Sequence record: MZ182246.1
Length of the DNA: 40,946 bases
Source of the DNA: Enterococcus phage vB_EfaS_785CS
Reading direction: 5' to 3' (one strand)
The notes under the pieces are model-generated. The model worked only from the letters and a program-made list of their open reading frames with translations. It ran no database searches and was not told where the DNA came from. Within the stretch, counting starts at the first letter, position 1. Every line of letters begins with the position of its first letter. Shown here in pieces: positions 1,830 through 40,946 of this stretch. Position numbers and translations under genes: made by a program.

Positions 1830-2042
1830 ATGCAATACACATGGACGGAAAAAGGAACATGCTTCAAAAACAATGACTATCAGTTTACTATGTACAAACT
1901 AGTGGACTATGACGCGGTAGTGGTTAGGTGTACGTATGGTTCATATGTAACTAGACTTATATTCTCACCAGATGAAGAAAGATTTATTTACGAATCACTT
2001 GACGAAATGAAAGAACTACTATATAATAAGTCATATATTTAA
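1830..2042 (+). CDS. hypothetical protein
   Basis: ORF tightly packed after the previous gene (taataATG). Confidence 0.55.
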   Translation: MQYTWTEKGTCFKNNDYQFTMYKLVDYDAVVVRCTYGSYVTRLIFSPDEERFIYESLDEMKELLYNKSYI

Positions 2043-2054
2043 GGAGGAAACAAC

Positions 2055-2276
2055 ATGAAATTAAGAGAAATGATTAACATTATCAACAATGACCTAACAA
2101 TCACACTGGTTTTTCAAGACAGAACACCATTACGTTTTGAATATGAAGCACGTGGACGATACATTGAATATGGACCAGCATATAAAACATTAGTCAAATA
2201 TCTTGACAATGAAGTCATTGGGATGTATATTATAGACAACAAACATATTAAACTACTAATTAAGGAGGAAGCATAA
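2055..2276 (+). CDS. hypothetical protein
   Basis: aaggaggaaacaacATG RBS. Confidence 0.6.
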   Translation: MKLREMINIINNDLTITLVFQDRTPLRFEYEARGRYIEYGPAYKTLVKYLDNEVIGMYIIDNKHIKLLIKEEA

Positions 2277-2669
2277 ATGAAATACACAATGAAATGCACA
2301 AAAGCAGACCCACAAGAACCATTTTTCACAGAAGGTAAAGAATATGACATTATTAAAAATGCGGGTGGCTATGCTATTATTGACAATGATGGTGAAGTAC
2401 CAGAATATGCACCAAACCTATTTAACTTAGAAAAAACCCTAAATGAATTTTGGGATTCAAAATTTAAGCTGGTTAATATTGATGAACAAACTACGATTAG
2501 AGGTGTATTCAAACGAACACTTGTTCAATACAATAAGGATATTGCATATCTTGAAAATTCTATAAGACGAAACAAAAGTAATATATCAGAAGCACAACTG
2601 GCAGTAATAAAAGTACAACGTGAAGCAATCCAAGAATTATACAATGAAGTATTTAAGGAGGAAGAATAA
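2277..2669 (+). CDS. hypothetical protein
   Basis: 130 aa ORF with an aaggagga RBS. Confidence 0.6.
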   Translation: MKYTMKCTKADPQEPFFTEGKEYDIIKNAGGYAIIDNDGEVPEYAPNLFNLEKTLNEFWDSKFKLVNIDEQTTIRGVFKRTLVQYNKDIAYLENSIRRNKSNISEAQLAVIKVQREAIQELYNEVFKEEE

Positions 2670-2881
2670 TGATTAAATTAGGATTATTATTACAACATAT
2701 TGAATTTGGGCGCACTGTTGTATTAGTAGAACACATGACAGAAAAAGATATTGTAACATTCACATTGACAGAAGAACTAGAATATACCAAAGAATATGAA
2801 AAAGTTGAACCACACCTAGGACGTGAGATAATGAATATTTCAACAACACCAGTTGGTGGACTATATATTGAAATTCTTTAA
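2669..2881 (+). CDS. hypothetical protein
   Basis: aaggaggaagaataATG, overlapping the stop of the previous gene. Confidence 0.55.
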   Translation: MIKLGLLLQHIEFGRTVVLVEHMTEKDIVTFTLTEELEYTKEYEKVEPHLGREIMNISTTPVGGLYIEIL

Positions 2882-2900
2882 AACTTTTTGAACAAAAGTG

Positions 2901-2929
2901 TTGACACCTACTATACCATGTGATATAGT
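2901..2929 (+). promoter_or_regulatory. sigma70-like promoter (TTGACA-N17-TATAGT) embedded in a palindrome
   Basis: ttgaca at 2901-2906, tatagt at 2924-2929. The spacer and -10 form the inverted repeat cacctactata / tatagtaggtg. Confidence 0.5.
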
Positions 2930-2958
2930 AGGTGTATAAGATAAAGGAGGAAAACAAA

Positions 2959-3036
2959 ATGGCACTATTTGGTTTAGTATTTGTAACAATTGGAATCTGG
3001 GGAACTTACAACATTATCAAGTATATTGAGGATTAG
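2959..3036 (+). CDS. small hydrophobic peptide (25 aa)
   Basis: aaaggaggaaaacaaaATG RBS. The peptide is MALFGLVFVTIGIWGTYNIIKYIED. It is below the ORF-track length cutoff. Confidence 0.3.
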   Translation: MALFGLVFVTIGIWGTYNIIKYIED

Positions 3037-3050
3037 GAGGTACAATAAAG

Positions 3051-3245
3051 ATGAGTAAGCTAAAAACATTTAAAGTAACATATGGAAATATAGAAAACAA
3101 GGTACAGCGTGCATATCTTAAAGCATATCACTATAATGAAGCGTTACGCAGAGCTAAGCGTATAAATGGTTTATATTGTATTATAAAATTGGAGGAAGTA
3201 GATAATGCCAGTAAAAACGAACTATTATATTTGTTTAACAAATAA
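3051..3245 (+). CDS. hypothetical protein
   Basis: ggaggtacaataaagATG RBS. Confidence 0.55.
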   Translation: MSKLKTFKVTYGNIENKVQRAYLKAYHYNEALRRAKRINGLYCIIKLEEVDNASKNELLYLFNK

Positions 3246-3429
3246 TGAACTATTCAGCTTATACACAGAAGAACCAATACTTGTAATGTATGAACAAGCG
3301 GTTGAAAATGATGAAAAATTATTGAAATTGGAAAAAGCAGAAGCAATTGAAATTGATGGTGAAATGCAATACACATTTATCACCATTCCATTAGATTCAA
3401 TATTATATGTATTGGAGGACGCAAAATGA
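3205..3429 (+). CDS. hypothetical protein
   Basis: ggagga at 3191-3196, 8 nt before the ATG at 3205. It overlaps the 3' end of the previous ORF in another frame. Confidence 0.5.
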   Translation: MPVKTNYYICLTNNELFSLYTEEPILVMYEQAVENDEKLLKLEKAEAIEIDGEMQYTFITIPLDSILYVLEDAK

Positions 3430-3584
3430 TTAAATTATTAAAAGCAATCGCATTCGCACTATTGGTAACATTAGGAATCGCACTACCACTAGCGTTTGTA
3501 TTTATTATCTATATGTCATATGTAACTGCTGGCTGGGCTGGTATTTGGTTAATGTTAATTGTTCTATATATTATGATTAAATAG
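3426..3584 (+). CDS. small membrane protein (52 aa)
   Basis: ggaggacgcaaaATG RBS, hydrophobic throughout. It is not in the ORF track because it is shorter than 60 aa. Confidence 0.4.
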   Translation: MIKLLKAIAFALLVTLGIALPLAFVFIIYMSYVTAGWAGIWLMLIVLYIMIK

Positions 3585-3595
3585 GAGGAATAGTA

Positions 3596-3817
3596 ATGAA
3601 GAAAGATGTAGGTACGTTTTGGAAATTTGAAAATGATTCATGGTACTTCTTTATTATTGGTAGTTTTGAAGATGAAGTTAGTGTATGTGCAATTGACACT
3701 TCAAACAATCAAATTAGTTTTATGATGATGAACCACGAACAAACAATTGACTTTATACCAAGTGATAATTTTGAAATGAATAACTACCTGATTGAGGTGA
3801 TGGGAAAATATGAGTGA
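3596..3817 (+). CDS. hypothetical protein
   Basis: taggaggaatagtaATG RBS. Confidence 0.55.
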   Translation: MKKDVGTFWKFENDSWYFFIIGSFEDEVSVCAIDTSNNQISFMMMNHEQTIDFIPSDNFEMNNYLIEVMGKYE

Positions 3818-4028
3818 TTCAGTGAAGGTTATTGGCTCAATTTGGGCTTCAACTGATGGTCTAAATATTTACAGAATTGACCAGATAGACACACGTGGTT
3901 ATTTTATCACATTGTTAGATAATGAAATAAACATGGTTTCTAAAGCATGGATACACAAGCAAGCTACAATGTGTGACACAAAAGCAACCAAAGCACAGAA
4001 ACAACAATTTAAGGAGGAAGCAAAATGA
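3810..4028 (+). CDS. hypothetical protein
   Basis: Translationally coupled ORF. Confidence 0.5.
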   Translation: MSDSVKVIGSIWASTDGLNIYRIDQIDTRGYFITLLDNEINMVSKAWIHKQATMCDTKATKAQKQQFKEEAK

Positions 4029-4287: not shown

Positions 4288-4316
4288 AATGTCATAAGAT
4301 ATTAGGAGGAATAATA

Positions 4317-4871
4317 ATGGTAAATGAATTACAAAAAGTTGAATATGACCAACCAGTTGAATTAAGCTTTATCAGCACGCTTGAAAAGACTTTGACACCA
4401 AGTAAGCAATATATCAAAGCATTGAAGGACTACGAAAAGGACCACAAAGAGTGGGAAGTGGACTTCAAAAATGGAGATGTGGCTAAGAATGCAGAACCAC
4501 AACGACCAGAACCAACATATGATGGCTTAAACGCAGAAGCCTTAGCTGTTCACATGGCTAAGGTGTTGCCAGTACACGCAAGTTCTACAATTGGTTTACC
4601 AGTGGTTTATAATCATGACACACAAATTTATGAGGTGTCAGAGGATAATTTAGAAGCCCGTTTATGGCAAAAGCTTTATAATGAGTTTATGATGGTATAC
4701 ACACCACATTATGCAGAAAATGCAAAGGTTGCTAACCAATTTAGAAATGCAGTCCAAAGAATGGCAAAAAATGCGCTTGCTTCTGGTGCTAACTTACCAT
4801 TAATGACAAAATGGACCCAAATAAGATTGCATTTAAAAATGGGACATATCGCTTTAAAGAGGACACATTAA
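4317..4871 (+). CDS. N-terminal portion of a P4/D5-type primase-helicase protein (reading frame a)
   Basis: Strong RBS (attaggaggaataataATG). It ends in a frame that overlaps the next ORF by 60 nt. Confidence 0.5.
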   Translation: MVNELQKVEYDQPVELSFISTLEKTLTPSKQYIKALKDYEKDHKEWEVDFKNGDVAKNAEPQRPEPTYDGLNAEALAVHMAKVLPVHASSTIGLPVVYNHDTQIYEVSEDNLEARLWQKLYNEFMMVYTPHYAENAKVANQFRNAVQRMAKNALASGANLPLMTKWTQIRLHLKMGHIALKRTH

Positions 4872-5902
4872 AACCAACGGTAAAAGAGGACTACCAAACA
4901 ACAAGAATTGAATATGATTATATTGATAATCCTAAACACAATATCGTTGCTGAATGGATTGAGTACATTTTAGAAGAGGACGCAAAAACACTATTTCAAT
5001 TGATTGGACGTATTTTCTACCGCAACCAAGACCCACAAGCAATGGTATTTGCAACTGGTGAAGGTAGTAACGGTAAATCGCATGTAATGAGCTTCATTGA
5101 GGACCTAGTAGGTAAATCAAATACAAGTCATGCAACACTAGCCAGCTTATCAGGTAATAATGACAAATTCGCAAGCTCTCAATTATTTGGTAAAATGGTA
5201 AATATTGAAACTGATATGCCAGCGCAACACATTAAGCAAACAGGTACACTGAAAACATTGTCAGGTAATGACGTAATGAGTGCAGAGTATAAAGGTATTA
5301 ACAAGTTCACATTTACGAACTACGCACTAATGATTTTCACAACTAATAACATGCCTACTTTTTCAGATACTTCACATGGTTTCTTGCGCCGTATTATCAC
5401 GCTTCCATTTAACAAGACCATGGGAAGAGATAACCCAACAGATTCAATGTGGCTAGAACGTTCAAAGAATTTCACATATGAAGAAAAGTCAGAGTTTATC
5501 AGCTACTGTCTGCAACAATATAGAAATGTATTGTTTGGGCTAAATGGAGAAACAAAAGGGCAGTTCTGGACCAGTGATAATGCAAATAAATTACGTGACG
5601 CATTTATCCAAGGAAATGACACAATGGCTAACTTTATTGAATTGAATGAACTTGAATTTACAAACAATATTGATGATGTAATTCCAAATACAGAATTATT
5701 AGAAGCATATAACACTATGTTACGTGAAGAGAATCTAATGGAAGTATCAGCCAAGAAGTTCATTCCAGAATTGAAACGTAAAGCACAATCAGAAAACATT
5801 ATTCTTAGTGTAATTACTAAGCGTGTTGATGGAAGAGTACAACGTTGTACAACTAACGTGAGATGGAAAACCAATACCTCTGAAACAGATAATATTTTTT
5901 AA
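4811..5902 (+). CDS. phage/plasmid primase P4-family C-terminal (D5-like) P-loop NTPase domain protein (reading frame b)
   Basis: IAFKNGTY...FATGEGSNGKSHVMSFIE (Walker A GxGxNGKS), DTD/TGTLKTLSGNDVMSAEYKG and FLRRIITLPF blocks are typical of primase_Cterm/D5 N-terminal plus P-loop proteins. There is no RBS before the ATG at 4811. Confidence 0.7.
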   Translation: MDPNKIAFKNGTYRFKEDTLKPTVKEDYQTTRIEYDYIDNPKHNIVAEWIEYILEEDAKTLFQLIGRIFYRNQDPQAMVFATGEGSNGKSHVMSFIEDLVGKSNTSHATLASLSGNNDKFASSQLFGKMVNIETDMPAQHIKQTGTLKTLSGNDVMSAEYKGINKFTFTNYALMIFTTNNMPTFSDTSHGFLRRIITLPFNKTMGRDNPTDSMWLERSKNFTYEEKSEFISYCLQQYRNVLFGLNGETKGQFWTSDNANKLRDAFIQGNDTMANFIELNELEFTNNIDDVIPNTELLEAYNTMLREENLMEVSAKKFIPELKRKAQSENIILSVITKRVDGRVQRCTTNVRWKTNTSETDNIF

Positions 5903-17142: not shown

Positions 17143-17177
17143 GATAGTAGTATAAACAAATTGGAGGAATTAAACAT

Positions 17178-18137
17178 ATGAAGAACATTGCAGAATTTAA
17201 AAATGCACCAGAACTAGCTGAAAAACTATTGGAAGTATTCAGTAACTTAAAAGGTAATTCACGAAGTCTTGACCCTATGAGAGCTGGTCAACATGATGTG
17301 GTTGTGATTGAATCAACTGAAAAGTTATCAGCAAAAGGAAAAGAAATGAAAGTAGTTAAAATGCGCTCACTAGAAGATGGTAGGGACGTTACAAGCTACA
17401 TCATGAAGTTTCGCAAATATGACTGGGATAAATGGAAAAATGTTGAAGTTGGTGACCGTTTATTGATTGATTTGAAGTTCAGTAATGGTTTTGCTACAGT
17501 AAAACCAATCAGAAGTATTTCAAGTGGTAATGTTGTACCATTTAAACCAAGTGAACCATTAACAAAGCAAACCATTTTATTATTTGATATTGAGATTTTT
17601 AAACATGACAGTTTATTTGTATTTCGTGATTACTTTACCAAAGAATGGGTTATCATTAATAACAACCTTGACGAATTACGCAAGTTTTACCTTGAATACC
17701 GTGATTCAATGTTTATTGGGTATAATAATGCGTCATATGACAACAATGTAATGCGTGGGTATCTACAAGGCAAAAATGCTTATCAGATGTCTAAGGCAAT
17801 TATTGAATCAGATAATAGAGGTCTAGTTTACAAAATGTTTGATAGTCATAAAACACCACTTTTTGGTATGGACCTATATCAAGATAACAAAGGTTTTAGC
17901 TTAAAAGAACATTCAGCATTCTTAGGCATCAACATTAAAGAAACAGAAGTAGACTTTGATATGGATAGACCATTGACAGAGGAAGAAAAAGCGAAAAACA
18001 TTGCATACTGTAAAAATGATGTATTAGCAACTGAAAAACGTTTTGAACAAAACATAAGTATGTTGTTAGCTAAAGCAACTATTGCTTTAATGTTTGACAT
18101 GGATAAGACAGACTTATTACAACCAATGCTAACTTAA
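17178..18137 (+). CDS. family-B DNA polymerase, N-terminal and 3'-5' exonuclease part
   Basis: Exo I LLFDIEIF, Exo II GYNNASYDNNV, Exo III YCKNDVLATE. Confidence 0.7.
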   Translation: MKNIAEFKNAPELAEKLLEVFSNLKGNSRSLDPMRAGQHDVVVIESTEKLSAKGKEMKVVKMRSLEDGRDVTSYIMKFRKYDWDKWKNVEVGDRLLIDLKFSNGFATVKPIRSISSGNVVPFKPSEPLTKQTILLFDIEIFKHDSLFVFRDYFTKEWVIINNNLDELRKFYLEYRDSMFIGYNNASYDNNVMRGYLQGKNAYQMSKAIIESDNRGLVYKMFDSHKTPLFGMDLYQDNKGFSLKEHSAFLGINIKETEVDFDMDRPLTEEEKAKNIAYCKNDVLATEKRFEQNISMLLAKATIALMFDMDKTDLLQPMLT

Positions 18138-18181
18138 CAGCTAAGTTACTTGGTGCAACCAAACAAGAAGTTAGACCAGAC

Positions 18182-19468
18182 TTGACAGACCCATTAGAGT
18201 TAGATAAACGATTAAACATTAATACAAAAGAGATTGCAGACGCATATCTCAATCATGACTTTGAATTAAACGAAAAAGGCAAACTAAACGTGTCACTAAA
18301 CTACACTACTGAAGATGGTTATGAAATGGTCTATGGTAGTGGTGGTGTACACGGTGCGGTACCTAGCTATATTCATATTGGATTATTCCCAATGCGTGAC
18401 TGGGGTTCACTATATCCAAATACAATGGTTCAGTTCAACCTACTATCAAGAAACATTCCAAAAGATAAACTTCACCGCTATAGTGACTTACTTAAACAAC
18501 GCATGGATGCTAAGTATTCAGGTGAAGAAACAGCAGATATTAAAGGCGTAAAGGTACCAACTTGGGTAATGATTAACGGTATCAAGTTACCGCTTAACAC
18601 TAAGTTTGGTGCCAGTGGTGCGCAGTTTAATGGTTTATATGACCCAAGAAACCAATTCTTGGTTTGTGCAACTGGTCAGTTGATTATGACAAACATGTTT
18701 GAATTAATTAAAGGTAAAGCACAATTCATTCAATCAAATACGGACGCACACGCATATATTCCAAACAGTGAAGCAGATGATAAAGCAATTGATGAAGCTT
18801 TAGATGAGTTCGCCAACAAGATTGGTCTTACACTAGATAAAGATATGTTCCGTGAGATTTGGCAAAAAGATGTAAATAATTATATTGCAGTACAACCAAA
18901 TGGAAAAGTAAAAGTAAAAGGTGCTATAGGCTTAACTGGTGGTATGAAAGTGTCAAAAGCGATTGTATCAAATGCGTTCATTAATTATCTGGTAGCTGGT
19001 AAAGACTACAAAGAATTTATTGAAGAATGTGAAGATGTAAGACAGTTTCAAATTATTACCAAAACTGGCTGGAGTTACGATAAAACAATTAAAAGAGACA
19101 TTGAAGGTAATGAAACCAGTGCTCAAAAGGTTAACCGCGTATTCGCAGTAAAAGACAAAACTAATGCAGTAGAATTGTTTAAGGTCAAAGAAGGTCAATT
19201 ATTAGATATTGAAGCTGATGAATTTAAGGATAATATTTCATATACAAAAGGATTGGTAAACGCTCCAGAATACTACAGAATCAGTAATGAAGCAATTGGT
19301 GAAGGTATTACCATTGATGAAATTGACAAACAATACTATATTGACCAGGTAGAAGACACGTTAGTCCTTTGGTTTGGTGAAAACTACAAAGAAAGGGTTG
19401 AACAAGCACATCATGAAAGAGAATTACAAGGATTCAAACCAGTTGAAGTGAAAAATTATATTGACTAA
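18182..19468 (+). CDS. family-B DNA polymerase, polymerase part
   Basis: Motif A DWGSLYPNTM (Dx2SLYP), motif B-like KLPLNTKFG, motif C-like SNTDAHAY. The frame is open upstream to 18107. The track's start is a TTG. Confidence 0.7.
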   Translation: MTDPLELDKRLNINTKEIADAYLNHDFELNEKGKLNVSLNYTTEDGYEMVYGSGGVHGAVPSYIHIGLFPMRDWGSLYPNTMVQFNLLSRNIPKDKLHRYSDLLKQRMDAKYSGEETADIKGVKVPTWVMINGIKLPLNTKFGASGAQFNGLYDPRNQFLVCATGQLIMTNMFELIKGKAQFIQSNTDAHAYIPNSEADDKAIDEALDEFANKIGLTLDKDMFREIWQKDVNNYIAVQPNGKVKVKGAIGLTGGMKVSKAIVSNAFINYLVAGKDYKEFIEECEDVRQFQIITKTGWSYDKTIKRDIEGNETSAQKVNRVFAVKDKTNAVELFKVKEGQLLDIEADEFKDNISYTKGLVNAPEYYRISNEAIGEGITIDEIDKQYYIDQVEDTLVLWFGENYKERVEQAHHERELQGFKPVEVKNYID

Positions 19469-19803: not shown

Positions 19804-20334
19804 ATGAAAGAACACTGGAGAGATATTAAAGATTATGAAGGGTTATATCAGGTTAGTGACTTAGGTAGAGTGAAAAGATGTAAAGGTAGTTATTCGCGGT
19901 CAGAACGGATTTTGAAACCACAGTTTAATAACCATGGTTATCTGCGTGTACACTTATATAAAAATAATAAACCAACGCACATTAGAGTTCACCGTTTAGT
20001 AGCAGAAGCATTCATACCTAACCTAGAAAACAAACCAGAGGTAAACCATCTTGATGAAGATAAAACAAACAACATGGTCTCTAATCTTGAATGGTGTACA
20101 AGAAACGAGAATGTAAATCACGGAACACGTAATAAAAGAATTTCAAAGAAACTTAAAGTAATATCTAAGGGAACCAAAATCAAAGCTATAGATATAGCAA
20201 ACGGCGAATGGAATGAGTATTGCTCAATTAGAGAATGTGCGAGACAGTTAGAGCTTGATTCGTCCAATATCAGAAAGTGTTTAAACGGTGAACGCAGACA
20301 CACTGGTGGGTATATGTTTGAATATTTAGAATAA
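19804..20334 (+). CDS. HNH homing endonuclease (NUMOD4 + HNH_3)
   Basis: WRDIKDYEGLYQVSDLGRVKR. VHRLVAEAFIPN..VNHLDEDKTNNMVSNLEW. Confidence 0.85.
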   Translation: MKEHWRDIKDYEGLYQVSDLGRVKRCKGSYSRSERILKPQFNNHGYLRVHLYKNNKPTHIRVHRLVAEAFIPNLENKPEVNHLDEDKTNNMVSNLEWCTRNENVNHGTRNKRISKKLKVISKGTKIKAIDIANGEWNEYCSIRECARQLELDSSNIRKCLNGERRHTGGYMFEYLE

Positions 20335-24411: not shown

Positions 24412-25977
24412 CTATAAATATCTTTCATTTACTGAAACATTAACTACTGGGGTCAATGCAAAATCAGAATAAACTGGTTTTATTACTGTTTCACCAATTG
24501 GTAATACAAATTTCTCCCAGTCGTTACCTAGTGTGTTTAGTGTTCCGTTTGGTGTTCCATTAACGTAAAGCGTACGTGTTGCTGTGTCAATTGTTACTTG
24601 GTCACCGTTTTGGAATACGTTTTTCACATCTTGTAGATATGGTGTATCTTTCCAACGCATTTTAGCATCTGAAATATCCATTAATATATGCAGATTTGAG
24701 CGCCATCTTTGAAACCAAGTTCCGAACTCGTAAATCTGTTGTGTGTTTTTTTCATTAAGCGTATACTTATATTCATCTTTCTTGACAACATTGTCAAACT
24801 GATTAATTGATTTGATTGAACACAAGCGCCATACTAGTTTATCACCTAAGCGTTCTAAGTTGATTTCTCGCCACCCATTGCCAAATTTCTTTTTATCAAA
24901 TGTTTGGGTGTGAATTACTTTACCTTGGTATACAATCTCAATCAAGATGTTATCGCTGGTTGTTGTTGAATCACGGAATACTGCACCCATTACATACTCA
25001 CCAGCTGTATCTACAAGGTTAAATTCAACACGTCCCATTGCTTGTGGTGAATATGAATACTTGAAGTTGAAACGTATGTTTGCTGTAAAGTTTAATGTTC
25101 TGTCATTGGTTGAACTTGGTGGTATAACTGCAACCATGCTTGGTCCATGCCAGTATTGGTCATTTGCGCTACCAAAAACAGGTGTGGCACTATTTGGGTC
25201 TAGTGTCATATCTATTGTACCATCAAATATGTTAGGTTTATTAATATCACCACCATAGTTTGGATAGCTTGAAACGAACCCCTCGTTAATTCTAAAGTCA
25301 TCTAATGGTTTGTTACCCCAAAAGTCCCACCACTTAACTGTTTCTACCTTTGTCTTTTCAATATAATCTTTTTCAGCTGGGTAACCAAACTGTAAAACAT
25401 TTCCTTTACCATCAACTAAACCACAGAATGCGTTATCACTATTCATTTTAAATGTGTATGTTGGATATGATTTGTAAGTTCCTTTGTTTTGAATTGTGAT
25501 GTTTTCAGTGTATTGGAATTCTGATGGAACGTACTGCCCTGTTGTTTCTGGGTTTAAATACATGTAAGGTCTAGCATATGCAACGCTAAACTCACTACCA
25601 AAAGCGGAATACTGGAAGTTAATTCCTTTTACATTAGGCGATTCAAGCTTAATGTCTAAATAGAAGTGGGTCCATTCTGTAGTCCCTTTAGGAATATCTC
25701 TAGTGTGTCGTTTCAAGATTCTAAGTGGTGCATCTCCCCATTCTTCTACTACAATTCTTCCAGCAATGTCTGCATCATCTGAATCAACAAAGCCTTTAAA
25801 TGTAATACCAGCAACAACCCTGTCACCTACTTTTAAATCAGGAATCATTCTTCTGGTATACTGGTTCATTTGAAACCACGCTTGACCTTCCGTTCCTGTC
25901 TTAAGATATTCAAAAGGTACACCACTTGTAAAGTCTGCACCAATAACTGTGCTTCCTAATCTTTTTTCTGGTAACAC
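24412..25977 (-). CDS. tail tip/baseplate component (Dit-like region)
   Basis: 521 aa. The internal ITIQNKGTYKSYPTYTFKMNSD...GNVLQFGYP block resembles the galectin-like part of siphovirus distal tail proteins. Confidence 0.45.
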   Translation of the reverse strand: MLPEKRLGSTVIGADFTSGVPFEYLKTGTEGQAWFQMNQYTRRMIPDLKVGDRVVAGITFKGFVDSDDADIAGRIVVEEWGDAPLRILKRHTRDIPKGTTEWTHFYLDIKLESPNVKGINFQYSAFGSEFSVAYARPYMYLNPETTGQYVPSEFQYTENITIQNKGTYKSYPTYTFKMNSDNAFCGLVDGKGNVLQFGYPAEKDYIEKTKVETVKWWDFWGNKPLDDFRINEGFVSSYPNYGGDINKPNIFDGTIDMTLDPNSATPVFGSANDQYWHGPSMVAVIPPSSTNDRTLNFTANIRFNFKYSYSPQAMGRVEFNLVDTAGEYVMGAVFRDSTTTSDNILIEIVYQGKVIHTQTFDKKKFGNGWREINLERLGDKLVWRLCSIKSINQFDNVVKKDEYKYTLNEKNTQQIYEFGTWFQRWRSNLHILMDISDAKMRWKDTPYLQDVKNVFQNGDQVTIDTATRTLYVNGTPNGTLNTLGNDWEKFVLPIGETVIKPVYSDFALTPVVNVSVNERYL

Positions 25978-26051
25978 TTTTACCCAAGGTTTTAAATACT
26001 GGTTAATCTTAGTGAACTCACTATCATAGATTAAATTAATATTACCACTTT

Positions 26052-26492
26052 TTACATTTGTAAACCCAGCTGGTTTATAGCATGCGCCAATCCATCAGGT
26101 ACATCAAACACTAATGTAAATGGTGTATACTTTGTGTCTGTTGCATCATACTCTTGTGTTCCACTGTAGATAGCATTGAAATACCTATCTGGAAATAAAT
26201 CTAAGATAAGTCTTTTTGGTTCATCACTGTTTATTATCTTGACTAATTCATCCTTTGTTTCTGAAACAGTCATACCACTATTGTCTGAAATGATGAAACC
26301 ATCAATGCTAATACTGTAGTCACCTAGTTTACTGTTTCTGAAATGTTTGCCATCAGTGTTGCCTACTGTGAAAAAGTCGTTATCTTTTGATAAAAAAGGT
26401 ATGTTCACTTTGGCTATTTGAAATAAGTGTGTTGTTTCCTTACCATCAAAGGTAAAGCTTCTTAAAAAATCATAATTTTCAGCCATTCTCAT
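26052..26492 (-). CDS. distal tail protein (Dit) N-terminal belt-domain-like protein
   Basis: 146 aa. LILDLFPDRYFNAIY and FTLVFDVPDGLAH are consistent with the Sipho_tail N-terminal domain. Confidence 0.4.
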   Translation of the reverse strand: MRMAENYDFLRSFTFDGKETTHLFQIAKVNIPFLSKDNDFFTVGNTDGKHFRNSKLGDYSISIDGFIISDNSGMTVSETKDELVKIINSDEPKRLILDLFPDRYFNAIYSGTQEYDATDTKYTPFTLVFDVPDGLAHAINQLGLQM

Positions 26493-26526
26493 TCTCCTTT
26501 ATAATTTACTATACTAGTATTATAAC

Positions 26527-26572
26527 ACAAAAGACAACCCTTGTAAAGGGGTTGTCTTAATGTTTTTTAAAT
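26527..26572. terminator. bidirectional hairpin terminator after the tape measure gene
   Basis: Perfect 10-bp stem aagacaaccc / gggttgtctt with U-rich flanks on both strands. Confidence 0.5.
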
Positions 26573-28978
26573 TATACCCATGTTACGTCTTGCGTTACGT
26601 TCGTTCACTGCCTGTATAGCGTTTAGTTCCTTGTTCATTTTCTTACCGTCCAATACAATATCTGTATTTTTAGCTAAGATAGCTTGTAACAATTCGTTCT
26701 GTTGTTGCATTAAACCAACTAGTAACGCTATATCTTGTGATTCACCACTTCCACCAACATGGTTGCGTTCATCCTTAACCCCTAGCATTTGTTTAGCTTG
26801 GTTAAGTAATGCCATTGCTCTACCTCGTTTAGATGGTTCAGTAGGTATGATAACTTCTGGATAGCCATTTTCAGCTAGTGTTGCAATCTGTGGTGTTCTT
26901 GCAATACCTCCATTGAAGTATCCTCTGATACGGTGACCACGTGGACCCCAACCAGACTTACCATACTGTAAGTCATTTTCCCAGTTACTATTGTTGAAGA
27001 ATGCTAACAATTGGTGATAACCATTGTTAATGTTACCATAGCCCGGAACTTTGTAGGCATCAAACGTTTGTGGAATATATTGCAATAGTCCTCGTGCTGG
27101 GTTACCACTTAGTGTGTTAATGTCAACCACATCTGGACTTTGAACAATCTTTTCATTACCACCTGATTCACGCATTATTTGAGCAACTAAACCAGCTACC
27201 TGTGAACTACTGATTGATTGACCCATGTATTTAGCCGCCTTGCGGATAACTGGCGCCCAGTCACCACCAGCACCAGCGGATTCTTCTTCCTCTTTTTTCT
27301 TGAATAATGCTTTTACTTTTTCAGCAAATGCATGTGTTGCTTTACCACCTAAACCTTTTGCCATGTCAAGTGGGATGTGTGATAGTCCACCTAAGTCCAT
27401 TGCACCCATAATTGCGTTGCGTGCTAGGTCTAATGGTTTACCTACCCAGTCCATTACATCACTGATTGTTTCTTTTACCTTGTTGATTCCATTACCTACA
27501 AATGACTTGGTATTAGACCACATGTCTTTTACCCCATCCATGAAACCAGTTCCTTTTTTGTAGAACGGAACTCGCCCACGTTTACCTAAGAATGCGGATG
27601 TTTCATGTTCGTTTAATACATGTGTACCTTTAGGTGCGTTCATCAGTACGTTACGTCCTTTAGGTATCATTGCATTACCATCTGGTGTAATGACCATTTC
27701 AGCACCACCACCGTCATTGACAACCATTGGTCCACCTACGTGACCACCTGAACCAGTTCCTTGTTCGTACTGTGGTACATCCCATTTAGCAACTGTTGGC
27801 GCACCAAACTTTTCTAGTACCCAGTTAGCACCGCCAATAATACCATTTACTGGACCGCCAATTGCTCGTAGTACACCGTTGAAAATACTCTTGAATGCAT
27901 TAGTAATTGCACCAGCACCGTTCTTCACTGCTCTTACCATTTGGTTTGGTAGGTCAGCAAACCAGCCTGAAACTGTTTTAATACCTGTACTAAATGTGTT
28001 CTTAATTCCATTCCAAAGGTTACGGATAGTGTTACTTACTAGGTTTTTCATAGTGTTAGCAATACCACTGATACCATTCTTGAATCCATCAAAGATGTTT
28101 TTAGCACCATTTGCGCCACTACTAAAGAAATTCTTGATACCATTCCACATGTTACTTACTGTGTTCTTGATTGCATTGTTGAAGTTATTTGCGATACCTT
28201 TGATACTTCCACCAAACTTGTCAAATAATGCACCCGCACTACTACCACCGCTTGTAAAGAAGTTCTTAACAGCATCCCACATTCCTTTGATTGTACCTTT
28301 TACTGATGTTCCTAGTCCTTTAACACCTTTGAAAATCTTACCAATGAACATGATGTTGAACCATTCCCAAACAGCTTTGATACCACCAAAGAAAATACGT
28401 TTGATAGCGTCCCACAGTCCAGTAAAGTCACCAGTTAGCACCATTGAGAATACATCAATAATACCTGTGATAGCGTCTACCATTCCATCAATGAAGCCCA
28501 CAACTGATTTTACAAATGATTTCAAAATCTCAATTGCAATAGCAAATATTGGTTTCAATAGTGTAAGTAGGTTCATAATTGCCTTACCAATACGGTCACC
28601 GTTCTGGTCCCACCAATTGCTTATTTTGTCAAATATCTTACCTAATGCTTCTGCTAACTCTTGAATAATTGGCATAATCATTGGTAGTAGTTCTTTTACA
28701 AAGAAGTCTAATACTATTTTGAAAATCTTTTGAGCGCCACCAAGTAACTTAGTGATTGCTTTTAAGGCTTTGTCAATTAATGGTATAATTGTTGGTATAA
28801 CCTCAACTGTGATAAAATCAACTACTTTTGTTAATGTTTCAAAGAAACCAGCTGGTGTACCGTCACCAGTACCAAAAGTAAACGCATTTTTGATGTAATC
28901 TTTAAATCTTCCAAGTGATTCTTTAATACCTACAATAGCATTAGATACAGTTTTCATTTTTTTTATCTGATAAACCAA
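26567..28978 (-). CDS. tail tape measure protein, C-terminal part with lytic transglycosylase (SLT) domain
   Basis: Gly-rich internal repeats (GIKNFFSSG..). SLT block ESGGN...GLLQY. No RBS before either candidate start. Confidence 0.7.
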   Translation of the reverse strand: MVYQIKKMKTVSNAIVGIKESLGRFKDYIKNAFTFGTGDGTPAGFFETLTKVVDFITVEVIPTIIPLIDKALKAITKLLGGAQKIFKIVLDFFVKELLPMIMPIIQELAEALGKIFDKISNWWDQNGDRIGKAIMNLLTLLKPIFAIAIEILKSFVKSVVGFIDGMVDAITGIIDVFSMVLTGDFTGLWDAIKRIFFGGIKAVWEWFNIMFIGKIFKGVKGLGTSVKGTIKGMWDAVKNFFTSGGSSAGALFDKFGGSIKGIANNFNNAIKNTVSNMWNGIKNFFSSGANGAKNIFDGFKNGISGIANTMKNLVSNTIRNLWNGIKNTFSTGIKTVSGWFADLPNQMVRAVKNGAGAITNAFKSIFNGVLRAIGGPVNGIIGGANWVLEKFGAPTVAKWDVPQYEQGTGSGGHVGGPMVVNDGGGAEMVITPDGNAMIPKGRNVLMNAPKGTHVLNEHETSAFLGKRGRVPFYKKGTGFMDGVKDMWSNTKSFVGNGINKVKETISDVMDWVGKPLDLARNAIMGAMDLGGLSHIPLDMAKGLGGKATHAFAEKVKALFKKKEEEESAGAGGDWAPVIRKAAKYMGQSISSSQVAGLVAQIMRESGGNEKIVQSPDVVDINTLSGNPARGLLQYIPQTFDAYKVPGYGNINNGYHQLLAFFNNSNWENDLQYGKSGWGPRGHRIRGYFNGGIARTPQIATLAENGYPEVIIPTEPSKRGRAMALLNQAKQMLGVKDERNHVGGSGESQDIALLVGLMQQQNELLQAILAKNTDIVLDGKKMNKELNAIQAVNERNARRNMGII

Positions 28979-30938
28979 GCATGTCTAGGTCAACTAATCC
29001 TTTGCCTTCCCATGCTGATTTAAAGTTATAACCCCATGATTTTAACCCACTAAATGCTGATTTGAATTGGTTTACTGCTGAATCAATTCTATTGATACCC
29101 TTAGCGTCTAAGCCAAGTGCGCCAACGTTGATAATACCTTCACCTTTCCAGATGCGTTTAATGTTTTCTGCCCACATGCCCACTTTTTTACCAAAGTCTG
29201 ATAAGTAACCCCACGCTTCACCTGTAACTTTTCCAAATACATCAAAGGTACCCTTGAATAGCTTACCAACCCATGAAAGGTTTTTGGCTAATTCAGGTAG
29301 GCTGTCACCTAATCCACCCAAGAAAGCTTCAAACCTTTTACCTGTGTTTGTTATCTGCTCTTGGAAAGATGGTAGACCCATTTTCTCTAGTGATTTGTTT
29401 AGTCCTTCAATCATCTTAGCTGTACCACGCGTAACAGCTGACTTCATGTTGGCTATTGCAGTACCAAAACCTTGTGTGCTATCTTTAGCTATCTTTTCTA
29501 ATGACTTAAGACCGCCACCACCTTCTTTATCCATTTTAACTAAGGCGTCTTGGAACTGTCTTACTGATATGCTACCTGATGACAATCCTTCTTTTAATGC
29601 CCCTGTTGTCATGCCCATTTCTTTAGCTAAGGCATTAAGGGTAGGTCCTAAACCACTGTTAATCATTGAGTTCCACGTTTGCGCATCTACCTTACCATTT
29701 GAGAACGATTGAGATAACTGAACAACCGCGCTGTCAACCATTTGGGCATCTCCGCCAAAACCTAGGATAGCATCATTCATTGCCTTAAATACGTCAACGG
29801 ACAATCCCATGTCGTCAGTTGAAGCTGTTAATAATTGCACGTTACTCACTGCACTGTCTAAGGCTGTTGGTAAACCACGTGTTGCCTCTTGTAACTTATC
29901 CATGTTCTTAGTGATGTCTTTTGTAGCTACACCCATGTTCTCAAATGCACGTGTACTATTGTTTAATGTATCAATCCTATTTAATGCACCATCAATAGAT
30001 GATTTAACAGTATCAAACGCTTTTGAACCAATGTTTGCAACTGCACCTAATGCGCCAGCACCTAAGAATATACCTACACCTTTTGTTGCTGAACCAATAG
30101 CAGAACCAATCTTGCCAAATCCTGACTTGATAGAACTACCTACACCAGAAGCTGTCTTTTTAAGTGATGAAAACACACCATCTAACTTACTAGCACTTGA
30201 ACTAGCTTCTTTTGATTCTGTACTTACACCCTTCATTGCTTTTTCTGTTTCTTTTAGTTCATCACCTAAAGCATCCACATTCTTTTCACTTTTGCGTGCT
30301 TCATTTGCGTATGCTTGTAGTTTTTGCTGTGCTTCTTTTACCTCTGTTGAGTTAGCACCATACTTCTTAGTTAACTGTGTGACCTCATTTGACTGTTCTC
30401 TGACAGCCTTGTTCATTATCTCTAGGTTGCGTCGTTGACCCTCTTGTTTTGCCTTAACAACGTCTATCTCTGTACCGTGTTTTTTGGCAATAGCAACTTC
30501 TTTTTCTGTTGCCTTGTTATTAGCTTCAACTTGTCTACCGTATTTACTTGAAGAAACCACTTGTTTCTCTAGTGCTGTTGTTGTTTTTGATAACTGTTGG
30601 TTGTATGCATTATACTTAGCTGTTGATTGATTAATTTTAGTGTTAAGATTGTCAACTTGCTTAGATTCAGCACCATATTTCTGAATGGCTTCATCTCTGC
30701 GCTTTTGTAAAATCTTAATCTTTTGTTCTTCTAACCCCATTACTGTGTTTAAGTCTTTTGTTTTTTGACTTAAACCTTGCATACTCTTACCACCGTCATC
30801 AAAAGCCTTTGCATTTGCACGCATAGCACTTTCAGCTTGTCGCATTTTACTTTGCAACTGGTCAAGTGTTTTAATGGTATTATCTACACCCTCAACACCT
30901 ATACCAAACTTCATGTTACCAATTGGTTTATCTGCCAT
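28941..30938 (-). CDS. tail tape measure protein, N-terminal part
   Basis: Coiled-coil Q/K/E-rich sequence typical of TMP N-termini. RBS aaaggagaacttgaataATG. Confidence 0.75.
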   Translation of the reverse strand: MADKPIGNMKFGIGVEGVDNTIKTLDQLQSKMRQAESAMRANAKAFDDGGKSMQGLSQKTKDLNTVMGLEEQKIKILQKRRDEAIQKYGAESKQVDNLNTKINQSTAKYNAYNQQLSKTTTALEKQVVSSSKYGRQVEANNKATEKEVAIAKKHGTEIDVVKAKQEGQRRNLEIMNKAVREQSNEVTQLTKKYGANSTEVKEAQQKLQAYANEARKSEKNVDALGDELKETEKAMKGVSTESKEASSSASKLDGVFSSLKKTASGVGSSIKSGFGKIGSAIGSATKGVGIFLGAGALGAVANIGSKAFDTVKSSIDGALNRIDTLNNSTRAFENMGVATKDITKNMDKLQEATRGLPTALDSAVSNVQLLTASTDDMGLSVDVFKAMNDAILGFGGDAQMVDSAVVQLSQSFSNGKVDAQTWNSMINSGLGPTLNALAKEMGMTTGALKEGLSSGSISVRQFQDALVKMDKEGGGGLKSLEKIAKDSTQGFGTAIANMKSAVTRGTAKMIEGLNKSLEKMGLPSFQEQITNTGKRFEAFLGGLGDSLPELAKNLSWVGKLFKGTFDVFGKVTGEAWGYLSDFGKKVGMWAENIKRIWKGEGIINVGALGLDAKGINRIDSAVNQFKSAFSGLKSWGYNFKSAWEGKGLVDLDMLGLSDKKNENCI

Positions 30939-31521
30939 TATTCAAGTTCTCCTTTCGCTCTAGCCATCTCTGCTGGTGATAATACTGAACCAAAGAATGA
31001 CATAGGGTCTTGCTTCTTCTCTTTTTTAGGGGCTTTCTGATTGTTAAATAAATCTAAAAGAAAGTAGTAATCAGAATTGTTTATCTCTGATAAACTCCAA
31101 TTACCACTTTCTAATAGTTGTCTATATAAGTCATCAAAGTTTTCTAACTGTTCTGTGAATGACGTATTTTCTAATTCTTTTAACTCATCAGCCCCTAGGC
31201 TTTTTTTCCTTCGTCATTGCTTCCCATTGCATTTGAGAAAATATCTTCAATCGTAGGCATTAGGTCATCAGCTGTAATTGAATCTTGAATTGCATCAAAT
31301 GTAACACGTGGGTCCATGAACATATCAGCTACTAATTGAATCATTTCATCAATCATTTGTAATTCTGACATTTCAACTTCACCAGCTTCAACTTTTTCAA
31401 CTGTTGCATGGAATTTAATTAGTTCACGCATTGAACGAGTTGAAATTGATTTTTGTTTGACTGTAAAACTTTTTCCTTCTTCATTTTGTAGTGTAATTTT
31501 AATCATAATTGATTCCTCCAA
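30938..31521 (-). CDS. tail assembly chaperone G-T fusion via programmed -1 frameshift
   Basis: The heptamer A AAA AAA (forward T7 at 31201-31207) sits 3 codons before the G stop. The -1 frame is open for 85 codons with no stop and ends at TAA overlapping the tape measure ATG (taATGg). Confidence 0.65.
31195..31521 (-). CDS. tail assembly chaperone (gpG-like)
   Basis: 108 aa acidic protein between the major tail and tape measure genes. It ends at the slippery run GGA AAA AAA GCC TAG. Confidence 0.7.
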   Translation of the reverse strand: MEESIMIKITLQNEEGKSFTVKQKSISTRSMRELIKFHATVEKVEAGEVEMSELQMIDEMIQLVADMFMDPRVTFDAIQDSITADDLMPTIEDIFSNAMGSNDEGKKA

Positions 31522-31627: not shown

Positions 31628-31691
31628 CAATTCAATTGTTGCTGATGTTTCAGCTGGTGTCACCTGTCCTACCACAGGTGGCGTACTAGGG
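31628..31691. repeat. 64-nt repeat element, copy A, at the 3' end of the major tail protein gene
   Basis: Identical except for one base to 34014-34077. It contains the hairpin cacctgt..acaggtg. Confidence 0.85.
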
Positions 31692-34000: not shown

Positions 34001-34013
34001 AGTGTTTACGATA

Positions 34014-34077
34014 ATTCAATTGTTGCTGATGTTTCAGCTGGTGTCACCTGCCCTACCACAGGTGGCGTACTAGGGTG
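34014..34077. repeat. 64-nt repeat element, copy B, at the 3' end of the major capsid gene
   Basis: See copy A. Confidence 0.85.
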
Positions 34078-40514: not shown

Positions 40515-40779
40515 CTATACAACTTCAATAATTTCATAATGGTGATTCTTGCCACCTAACTTTGTTTTGACGTCTTTAAAAATAGCCCGATTTTTTATTA
40601 TAAAATCTATCTGCCTCAGTCTGTGATTTAAATGCTCTGGTTTGTTGTGTGCGTAAATCTTTTACCATAATAGGTTTCGGAGCTGGCATAGGGCTTTGTC
40701 ACCTACCTTTCATTATATATTTTAGTTTAAAAGAAAAACTCCCCTACCAATATTGTACCACAAAACTGTTGTTTGAGAA

Positions 40780-40946
40780 ACCAGGTTTTGTGCTGTTTAT
40801 GAGGGAGGAAATTCGTATTAGTGAGATTATGAAACAATCTGTGAAACGGTTGATATTATTGAAAAGAAACCAGTTTTTAATCGTGTTTTACGAGGGAAAA
40901 AGGCTGTTTTGAAACTTCGTAAAGGGAGATTCGTTTAAGCGAAAGT
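40780..40946. repeat. G-rich direct repeats (GAGGGAGG, CGAGGGAAAAAGG, AAAGGGAGATTCG) near the right window end; candidate cos/terminase recognition region, continuing at 1-110
   Basis: Direct repeats gagggaggaaattcgtattagtgaga (40801-) and aaagggagattcgtttaagcgaaa (40921-). Inverted C-rich copies ctccctccca (47-56) and tccctccca (71-79), plus cgagggggggtc (20-31), at the left end. Confidence 0.4.

What the first reader, a model, noticed from the sequence alone, without database searches (positions are those of the whole stretch)
18100..18185. Family-B DNA polymerase split into an exonuclease ORF and a polymerase ORF by a frame change
The ORF at 17178-18137 carries Exo I, II and III (DIE, YNNASYD, YCKND). 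The ORF at 18182-19468 carries polymerase motifs A (DWGSLYPNT), B-like (KLPLNTKFG) and C-like (NTDAHAY). The second frame is open from 18107. The two frames therefore overlap at 18107-18137, and a single-nt insertion or a -1 shift would fuse them into one polymerase of about 750 aa. There is no obvious slippery heptamer and no RBS-ATG for the second part; the track start is a TTG. The split could be real, giving a two-subunit enzyme, or it could be programmed or an error. Together with the primase and TMP splits, this makes three essential genes interrupted in one genome.
Basis: seen in the sequence. Interest (0 to 1): 0.55.

Follow-up and report, generated by a model that had tools for sequence, protein, structure and literature searches.

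The report
One-base deletion breaks ordinary polymerase gene
The "split" DNA polymerase of this Enterococcus phage is an ordinary single-chain gene with one A missing from a short AAA run. The deletion is seen only in this record, next to similar one-base slips in other essential genes, so it is most likely a sequencing or assembly error.

Summary
Frames 17178-18137 and 18107-19468 overlap by 31 nt, and one added base fuses them. The window is Enterococcus phage vB_EfaS_785CS (genus Efquatrovirus). Its relatives carry a single 2292-nt, 763-aa polymerase gene: about 100 phage records, 115 of the 120 best protein hits, and 15 IMG/VR and metagenome contigs. The window lacks one A of the run TTAC-AAA-CC at 18121-18122. 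Restoring that A gives a protein identical, residue for residue, to the polymerase of LY0322 and ZXL. It is also identical to QVU02019.1, an accession I infer belongs to the co-deposited sibling phage 785CC. The deleted allele was found in no other public sequence.

There is no slippery heptamer, no long homopolymer, no stable downstream RNA structure, and no start codon with a ribosome-binding site for the second part. The same record has other one-base homopolymer-length changes that break the primase (4799), the tape measure gene (28957) and Dit (26071).

Best explanation (about 0.8): a sequencing or assembly error, or less likely a recent lesion in the sequenced stock. It is not a two-subunit enzyme and not recoding. 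The protein is a divergent family-B polymerase by motifs and predicted fold. Interest is low.

The parts
17178..19468 (+). Whole DNA polymerase gene (family-B type), 2291 nt here against 2292 nt in relatives. It is interrupted by a one-base deletion.
   Evidence: Relatives annotate one CDS of 2292 nt / 763 aa at the collinear position. Both halves match consecutive parts of one profile, phrog_1252: positions 13-242 and 246-662 of 663.
17178..18137 (+). 5' part. Codons 1-314 are the authentic polymerase (N-terminal extra domain plus the 3'-5' exonuclease motifs Exo I-III). They are followed by 5 out-of-frame codons (P M L T stop).
18121..18122 (+). The lesion. The run is AA here and AAA in every relative (TTAC-AAA-CC), so one A is missing.
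   Evidence: Alignments. All 60 listed phage records span 122 nt for the 121-nt query, and none reaches 100% identity. The deleted allele has 0 matches in IMG/VR and JGI metagenomes, against 10 and 5 matches for the intact allele.
18107..19468 (+). 3' part in the -1 frame. It holds authentic polymerase residues 315-763 from the lesion onward, with pol motifs A, B and C. The first in-frame start codon is TTG at 18182, and it has no Shine-Dalgarno sequence.
   Evidence: Anti-SD duplex energy is -1.4 kcal/mol, against -8.9 to -10.2 kcal/mol for five neighbouring genes.
4798..4799 (+). A lesion of the same kind in the primase gene: TT here and TTT in 5 relatives. It splits the 528-aa primase into frames 4290-4871 and 4793-5902.
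   Evidence: The repaired product is exactly QVU01992.1, inferred to be sibling 785CC's, and is also exact in other phage records such as vB_EfaS_AL3.
28957..28964 (-). A lesion of the same kind in the tape measure gene: a T8 run here (A8 on the gene strand), T7 in sibling 785CC and T6C in other relatives. It splits the 1456-aa TMP into frames 28941-30941 and 26567-28984.
   Evidence: QVU02028.1 of 785CC equals the window product with one T removed.
26070..26071 (-). A lesion of the same kind in the Dit / tail protein gene: GG here and GGG in 4 relatives. It splits the 691-aa protein into frames 26052-26498 and 24412-26094. Unlike the others, this one is shared with the sibling record 785CC.
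   Evidence: (the same 521-aa product is annotated in both records).

Best explanation
The window holds an ordinary single-chain family-B-type phage DNA polymerase gene of 763 aa in which the deposited sequence lacks one A of a three-A run (window 18121-18122). The deletion shifts the reading frame after codon 314 and creates two overlapping ORFs. Most likely it is a homopolymer-length error from sequencing or assembly of this record (Enterococcus phage vB_EfaS_785CS). In the real phage, the gene would then be read as one polypeptide carrying an N-terminal extra domain, the 3'-5' exonuclease and the polymerase. Shown here: the lesion, that it is found only in this record, the perfect restoration by one base, the lack of any recoding or re-start signals, and the clustering with other one-base homopolymer changes in essential genes. 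Inferred: that the cause is technical rather than a true mutation. That needs the reads.
For: (1) Relatives have one 2292-nt CDS: LY0322, DEfc27b, IME-EF4, FX417, KEN07, BUCT824, EF326P1, 2e. Three metagenome and SRA contigs that carry the identical prim-pol protein also have a 763-aa polymerase and a 528-aa primase. (2) The only indel in the gene is AAA>AA. All 60 listed of 100 matching phage records have the extra base. (3) Adding the A gives a protein with 0 differences from LY0322's polymerase. The only other nucleotide difference in 2.3 kb (18787) is synonymous, so the downstream frame shows no decay. (4) That exact 763-aa sequence is on record as QVU02019.1, with longest contig 40,956 bp. 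I assign this accession to the co-deposited sibling vB_EfaS_785CC by accession arithmetic: helicase and polymerase are 17 numbers apart in both series. The 319-aa fragment exists only in the 785CS record. (5) The deleted allele has 0 hits in IMG/VR and in JGI metagenomes. The intact allele has 10 and 5 hits. (6) 115 of the 120 best homologues of the C-terminal part are 756-769 aa and none is 428-453 aa. All 120 homologues of a 59%-identical relative are 756-811 aa. In the 50%-identity representative library, nearly all of the best 150 hits match query residues ~131-735 in one protein, spanning the break. (7) The same record has other one-base homopolymer-length changes absent from 4-5 relatives: primase 4799, Dit 26071, TMP 28957, intergenic 40765. 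The three coding ones each split a large essential gene. The repaired primase and TMP equal accessions of the sibling series. In the 27.8-kb stretch that is 99.7% identical to LY0322, I count four such one-base indels against about three isolated substitutions not seen in the five relatives compared (18787, 33325, 40543). That ratio is unlike natural divergence under selection. (8) There are no signals for a functional split or for recoding.
Against: No reads or quality values are available, so an error cannot be told apart from a true recent mutation in the sequenced stock. The runs affected in the polymerase, primase and Dit are short (2-3 nt), where homopolymer miscalls are rarer than in long runs. 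The Dit frameshift is shared by both sibling records, so at least one lesion is either real in this lineage or a systematic error. The sibling's DNA could not be retrieved, so the comparison with it rests on exact protein look-ups and on accession-number inference.
Confidence: 0.8

Rival explanations
1. The deletion is a genuine, very recent mutation in the sequenced stock. The polymerase gene would be a fresh pseudogene in a defective genome, or in a dominant sub-population propagated with help from co-infecting intact genomes such as the sibling 785CC.
For: The Dit frameshift is present in both sibling records, so not every lesion need be a one-off artefact. The deletions sit in short runs. 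The frame downstream is perfectly intact, which also fits a very recent event.
Against: An obligately lytic phage would have to carry simultaneous frameshifts in primase, polymerase and tape measure protein. The allele is absent from every other public sequence searched. Inference from general phage biology: such a genome should not form plaques on its own.
Confidence: 0.13
2. The split is real and functional. The enzyme would be made of two polypeptides, an exonuclease subunit and a polymerase subunit that reassemble, as in the split gene 43 (43A/43B) of Aeromonas T4-like phages 25 and 44RR.
For: There is precedent that split family-B polymerases can be active (PMC2988022). The break lies after Exo III and before pol motif A, between two functional regions.
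Against: There is no inserted intercistronic sequence or homing endonuclease; the two frames overlap. The downstream part has no ATG, and its first start is TTG 18182, 21 codons past the break, with an SD energy of -1.4 against about -9 kcal/mol for real genes. The split is not conserved in any relative. The product is identical to intact enzymes, so nothing has adapted to a split.
Confidence: 0.03
3. Recoding fuses the frames at some frequency, either by a programmed -1 ribosomal frameshift or by transcriptional slippage.
For: The second frame is -1 relative to the first, and the frames overlap by 31 nt.
Against: There is no X XXY YYZ heptamer and no homopolymer of 4 or more in 18080-18140. 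The 90 nt downstream fold no better than shuffles (z = -0.92). Relatives are in frame, so no frameshift site has been maintained in this family.
Confidence: 0.02

Closest known systems
DNA polymerase of Efquatrovirus phages, e.g. LY0322 YP_009624705.1 and IME-EF4 YP_009004351.1; PHROG family phrog_1252
   Same: The nucleotide sequence is 99.9% identical to LY0322 over the gene region. After adding one A the protein is 100% identical. The gene has the same neighbours: adenine methylase upstream and glutaredoxin/HNH downstream.
   Different: One A is missing at 18121-18122, which breaks the reading frame. One synonymous change lies at 18787.
Archaeal and eukaryotic family-B DNA polymerases (9°N, KOD, Tgo, Pfu, P. 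calidifontis PolB, yeast Pol alpha)
   Same: The predicted structure of a 97%-identical full-length relative matches them over the whole length (Foldseek E about 1e-16 to 1e-14, probability 1.00). Exo I-III and pol motifs A and B conform.
   Different: Only 11-14% identity. There is no Pfam or PDB sequence hit. Motif C reads NTD rather than DTD. About 130 extra N-terminal residues are absent from distant homologues. TM-scores of about 0.4 reflect the multidomain geometry.
Split gene 43 (43A/43B) of Aeromonas T4-like phages 25 and 44RR
   Same: A family-B replicative polymerase is encoded as two reading frames.
   Different: In those phages an intercistronic untranslated sequence or a seg homing endonuclease separates two cistrons, and the products co-purify and are active (PMC2988022). 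Here there is no insertion and no start signal, the frames overlap, and the break is seen in only one record.

Membership tests
Family-B DNA polymerase | Overall fold: N-terminal, exonuclease, palm, fingers and thumb domains | tested here: met
   AlphaFold2 model of P0001 (763 aa; its C-terminal part is 97% identical to the window) has pLDDT 83 and pTM 0.83. The top 50 Foldseek PDB hits are all family-B polymerases, E 7e-17 to 6e-14, probability 1.00, TM 0.31-0.44.
Family-B DNA polymerase | 3'-5' exonuclease motifs Exo I (DxE), Exo II (Nx2-3[FY]D) and Exo III (Yx3D) | tested here: met
   The motifs are FDIEIF (D137, E139), YNNASYD (N183, Y187, D188) and YCKND (Y277, D281). All these residues are invariant in 30 homologues. 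The motif definitions come from established knowledge.
Family-B DNA polymerase | Pol motif A, DxxSLYPS | tested here: met
   The sequence is D408-W-G-S-L-Y-P-N. D408, G410, S411, Y413, P414 and N415 are invariant.
Family-B DNA polymerase | Pol motif B, Kx3NSxYG | tested here: met
   The sequence is K470-LPL-N-T-K-F-G478, with T in place of S and F in place of Y. K470, N474, T475 and G478 are invariant.
Family-B DNA polymerase | Pol motif C, YxDTDS | tested here: inconclusive
   The sequence is Q-S-N521-T-D523-A-H. The second Asp is kept and the first position is Asn, and this is invariant in the family. No residue-level structural superposition was made.
Family-B DNA polymerase | Match to the curated sequence models (Pfam DNA_pol_B / DNA_pol_B_exo1) or to solved family-B sequences | tested here: not met
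   There are 0 Pfam families at E up to 10 for the halves and for the full-length protein, and 0 PDB sequences at E up to 10. This is a divergent branch, recognised only by PHROG profiles annotated 'DNA polymerase'.
Naturally split (two-cistron) polymerase, T4-like 43A/43B type | Intervening sequence, and independent translation signals for the downstream cistron | tested here: not met
   The frames overlap by 31 nt with no insertion. The first start is TTG 18182, with SD -1.4 kcal/mol against -8.9 to -10.2 for neighbouring genes.
Naturally split (two-cistron) polymerase, T4-like 43A/43B type | The split is conserved among related genomes | tested here: not met
   The gene is a single 763-aa CDS in all relatives inspected. 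The deleted allele has 0 matches elsewhere.
Programmed -1 ribosomal frameshift | Slippery heptamer X XXY YYZ in the overlap | tested here: not met
   None is present in 18080-18137 in the zero frame.
Programmed -1 ribosomal frameshift | Stimulatory downstream RNA structure | tested here: not met
   Window 18124-18213 has an MFE of -12.1 kcal/mol, z = -0.92, and 31 of 200 shuffles fold as well.
Programmed -1 ribosomal frameshift | Two-frame arrangement conserved in relatives | tested here: not met
   Relatives are in frame.

The most novel reading that the evidence does not exclude
The AA allele is real in a viable phage. The polymerase would then be produced either as two non-covalently associated polypeptides, with internal initiation at TTG 18182 or elsewhere without an SD, or by an unconventional low-level frame correction. 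The primase and tape measure genes of the same phage would be similarly interrupted. This would be a lytic phage that tolerates broken replication genes.
Probability: 0.03. Interest if true: 0.6.

Novelty: not a real feature. Interest (0 to 1): 0.06.

Why it matters
As biology it matters little, because the enzyme is the standard single-chain polymerase of Efquatrovirus phages. The practical value is curatorial. The public record of vB_EfaS_785CS carries truncated 'DNA polymerase B-like', primase and tape-measure proteins (for example QVU02085.1 and QVU02096.1). These propagate into protein databases and into BLAST-based annotation of other phages; the 785CS tape measure entry is already cited as best hit in PMC12033158. 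Enterococcus phages of this genus are therapy candidates, and several frameshifts in essential genes should be resolved by resequencing before the record is used as a reference.

Tried and rejected
1. Intron or homing-endonuclease insertion. Three relatives gave two-piece BLAST hits about 620 nt longer (H5, H7, H34). Inspection showed intact 2292-nt polymerase CDSs; the extra length came from chaining at the methylase end of the query.
2. Shorter homologues (496-594 aa) among the protein hits. The one inspected (P0010, a metagenome scaffold) is broken at a different place by an internal deletion, in a locus containing 115 Ns, so it is not a conserved split.
3. Retrieving the sibling 785CC DNA. 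Exact-product look-ups of the window's polymerase fragments and helicase found no gene positions. The prim-pol look-up returned only metagenome and SRA contigs. A 785-lineage-specific TMP pattern had no match in IMG/VR. The phage collection holds neither 785 record. The comparison with the sibling therefore rests on exact protein look-ups.
4. Literature. No primary paper on 785CS or 785CC is in the library, only a BLAST-hit mention, so the sequencing platform is unknown.
5. Pfam and PDB sequence searches gave nothing. Family assignment needed PHROGs and fold comparison.
6. My automated scan for window-only differences missed the homopolymer indels, because gap placement differs with strand. 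The indels were established by direct alignment.

Full report
**What is there.** An ATG ORF runs 17178-18137 (319 aa), preceded by a strong GGAGGA ribosome-binding site. A TTG ORF runs 18182-19468 (428 aa). The stop-to-stop open frames are 17151-18137 and 18107-19468, so they overlap by 31 nt, and the second frame is -1 relative to the first.

**Origin of the window.** The window is a complete genome of an Enterococcus faecalis siphophage of the genus Efquatrovirus.
- The polymerase region is 99.9% identical to phages LY0322, ZXL and FX417, and 108 phage records match it.
- Exact protein look-up identifies the record as Enterococcus phage vB_EfaS_785CS (40,946 bp). The 319-aa fragment is QVU02085.1 and occurs in that record only.

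**The lesion.** Every relative inspected annotates one polymerase CDS of 2292 nt / 763 aa at the collinear position, between the adenine methylase and the glutaredoxin-like gene. These are LY0322, DEfc27b, IME-EF4, FX417, KEN07, BUCT824, EF326P1 and 2e.
- The window's span 17178-19468 is 2291 nt. Alignment shows a single difference at the junction: relatives read TTAC-AAA-CC and the window reads TTAC-AA-CC, at 18121-18122.
- In a sensitive search with the 121-nt junction, 100 phage records matched. All 60 listed span 122 nt, so all have the extra base, and none reached 100% identity.
- Inserting one A after 18120 gives a 763-aa ORF with zero amino-acid differences from LY0322's polymerase. The only other nucleotide difference in the gene (18787) is synonymous. 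The downstream frame therefore shows no decay.

**Independent checks that the intact form is the norm.**
- 115 of the 120 best homologues of the C-terminal part are 756-769 aa, and none is 428-453 aa.
- All 120 best homologues of a 59%-identical relative are 756-811 aa.
- In the 50%-identity representative library (3119 hits at E up to 1e-3), nearly all of the best 150 match query residues ~131-735 within one protein, which spans the break at residue 315.
- The two window halves match consecutive, non-overlapping parts of one profile, phrog_1252: positions 13-242 and 246-662 of 663.
- A degenerate 40-nt pattern of the deleted allele has 0 matches in IMG/VR and 0 in the JGI metagenome collection. 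The intact allele has 10 and 5 matches.
- Three independent metagenome and SRA contigs that encode the identical prim-pol protein carry a 763-aa polymerase and a 528-aa primase.

**The sibling record.** The helicase and prim-pol proteins of the window are shared exactly with a co-deposited phage, vB_EfaS_785CC (40,956 bp).
- The repaired 763-aa polymerase sequence is on record as QVU02019.1, with longest contig 40,956 bp. In both accession series the polymerase lies 17 numbers after the helicase (02002 to 02019, and 02068 to 02085). I therefore assign QVU02019.1 to 785CC. This assignment is an inference from the accession numbers.
- On that assignment, the sibling has the intact gene with exactly the product the window would have if the A were present.

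**The lesion is not alone.** A whole-genome comparison with LY0322, followed by direct alignment to 4-5 relatives, shows further one-base homopolymer-length changes absent from those relatives:

| Position | Change | Gene |
|---|---|---|
| 4799 | TTT>TT | primase |
| 26071 | GGG>GG | Dit |
| 28957 | T8 against T6C | tape measure protein |
| 40765 | CC>C | intergenic |

- Each coding change splits a large essential gene into two overlapping frames.
- The repaired primase equals QVU01992.1, which falls in the 785CC accession series and is also exact in other phage records such as vB_EfaS_AL3.
- The tape measure protein with one T removed equals QVU02028.1, which is named as 785CC.
- The Dit frameshift differs from the others: the same 521-aa truncated product is annotated in both sibling records.
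- In the 27.8 kb that is 99.7% identical to LY0322, I count four such one-base indels. Only about three isolated substitutions there are absent from the five relatives compared (18787, 33325, 40543). That ratio, and its concentration in essential genes, is unlike natural divergence under selection.

**No signals for a functional alternative.**
- The overlap has no X XXY YYZ heptamer and no homopolymer of 4 or more.
- The 90 nt downstream fold no better than shuffled sequence (z = -0.92).
- The second frame has no in-frame ATG, GTG or TTG before TTG 18182. That codon has an anti-SD duplex energy of -1.4 kcal/mol, against -8.9 to -10.2 for five neighbouring genes.
- Genuinely split family-B polymerases exist: genes 43A/43B of Aeromonas phages 25 and 44RR are separated by an untranslated spacer or a seg endonuclease, and their products co-purify and are active (PMC2988022). 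None of that anatomy is present here.

**What the protein is.** Pfam and PDB sequence searches find nothing, so this is a divergent lineage.
- The AlphaFold2 model of a full-length relative (pLDDT 83) matches archaeal and eukaryotic family-B polymerases over its whole length (Foldseek E about 1e-16, probability 1.00).
- Exo I-III and pol motifs A and B are present and invariant. Motif C reads NTD instead of DTD.
- Residues 1-130 form an extra beta-rich domain that distant homologues lack.
- The label 'family-B-type polymerase' is supported by fold and motifs, although the curated sequence models do not recognise it.

**Verdict.**
- Best explanation: a sequencing or assembly error in this deposited genome (about 0.8).
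- A true recent lesion in the sequenced stock cannot be excluded without reads (about 0.13).
- A functional two-subunit enzyme (about 0.03) or recoding (about 0.02) is very unlikely.

Novelty: not a real feature. Interest: low.

Noticed in passing
window 24412-26498 (- strand), lesion at 26070-26071: The Dit / tail protein gene is frameshifted (GG against GGG in 4 relatives). Unlike the polymerase, primase and TMP lesions, the resulting 521-aa product is annotated identically in both sibling records, 785CS (QVU02093.1) and 785CC (QVU02026.1). It is either a real lineage-specific split of the 'evolved Dit' or a systematic error. The downstream part would start at GTG 25977 with a weak SD (-3.8 kcal/mol).
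   Followed up: partly
window 28957-28964 (- strand gene): The tape measure gene has a T8 run (A8 in the mRNA). Sibling 785CC has T7, which carries a Glu-to-Lys change relative to LY0322's T6C. A run of 8 A is long enough that transcriptional or translational slippage could make this frameshift leaky, unlike the one in the polymerase.
   Followed up: partly
window 4290-5902 (+), lesion at 4798-4799: The primase (D5_N/DUF5906 type, 528 aa in relatives) is split by TTT>TT. The repaired product equals QVU01992.1, inferred to be sibling 785CC's. The only in-frame start just downstream is ATG 4811, which has no SD (+0.7 kcal/mol).
   Followed up: yes
window 17178-17570 (polymerase residues 1-130): The N-terminal ~130 residues of the polymerase form a beta-rich extra domain in the model. 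Distant homologues lack it; their matches start at query residue ~131-135. Its function is unknown.
   Followed up: no
window 31629-31691 and 34013-34075: A 63-nt sequence occurs twice in the structural module, shown by reciprocal 98% cross-matches to the two LY0322 copies. It lies near the starts of the major tail protein and major capsid protein genes and may be a repeated regulatory element.
   Followed up: no
window 40872-40946; LY0322 (L004) 6-80 and 40840-40913: The last ~75 nt of the window match LY0322 both forward near its right end and reverse-complemented near its left end. This implies a ~75-nt inverted repeat flanking the arbitrary record ends, in an intergenic region between divergent modules. 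A further one-base change absent from relatives (CC>C) lies nearby at 40765.
   Followed up: no
L013 17804-18334, L014 18570-19100, L015 8845-9375; window 19804-20334: An HNH/I-HmuI-like endonuclease gene sits at different places around the polymerase in relatives. In some it overlaps the polymerase 3' end, ahead of the glutaredoxin gene; in the window it follows the glutaredoxin gene. This suggests homing-endonuclease mobility around the gene, but none interrupts it.
   Followed up: no
L012 (ENA ERZ28624671 scaffold_873) 1846-4009: A metagenome scaffold has the orthologous polymerase broken at a different site (217 aa + 502 aa) by an internal deletion, in a locus with 115 Ns. This shows that sporadic, non-conserved breaks of this gene occur in assemblies.
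   Followed up: partly
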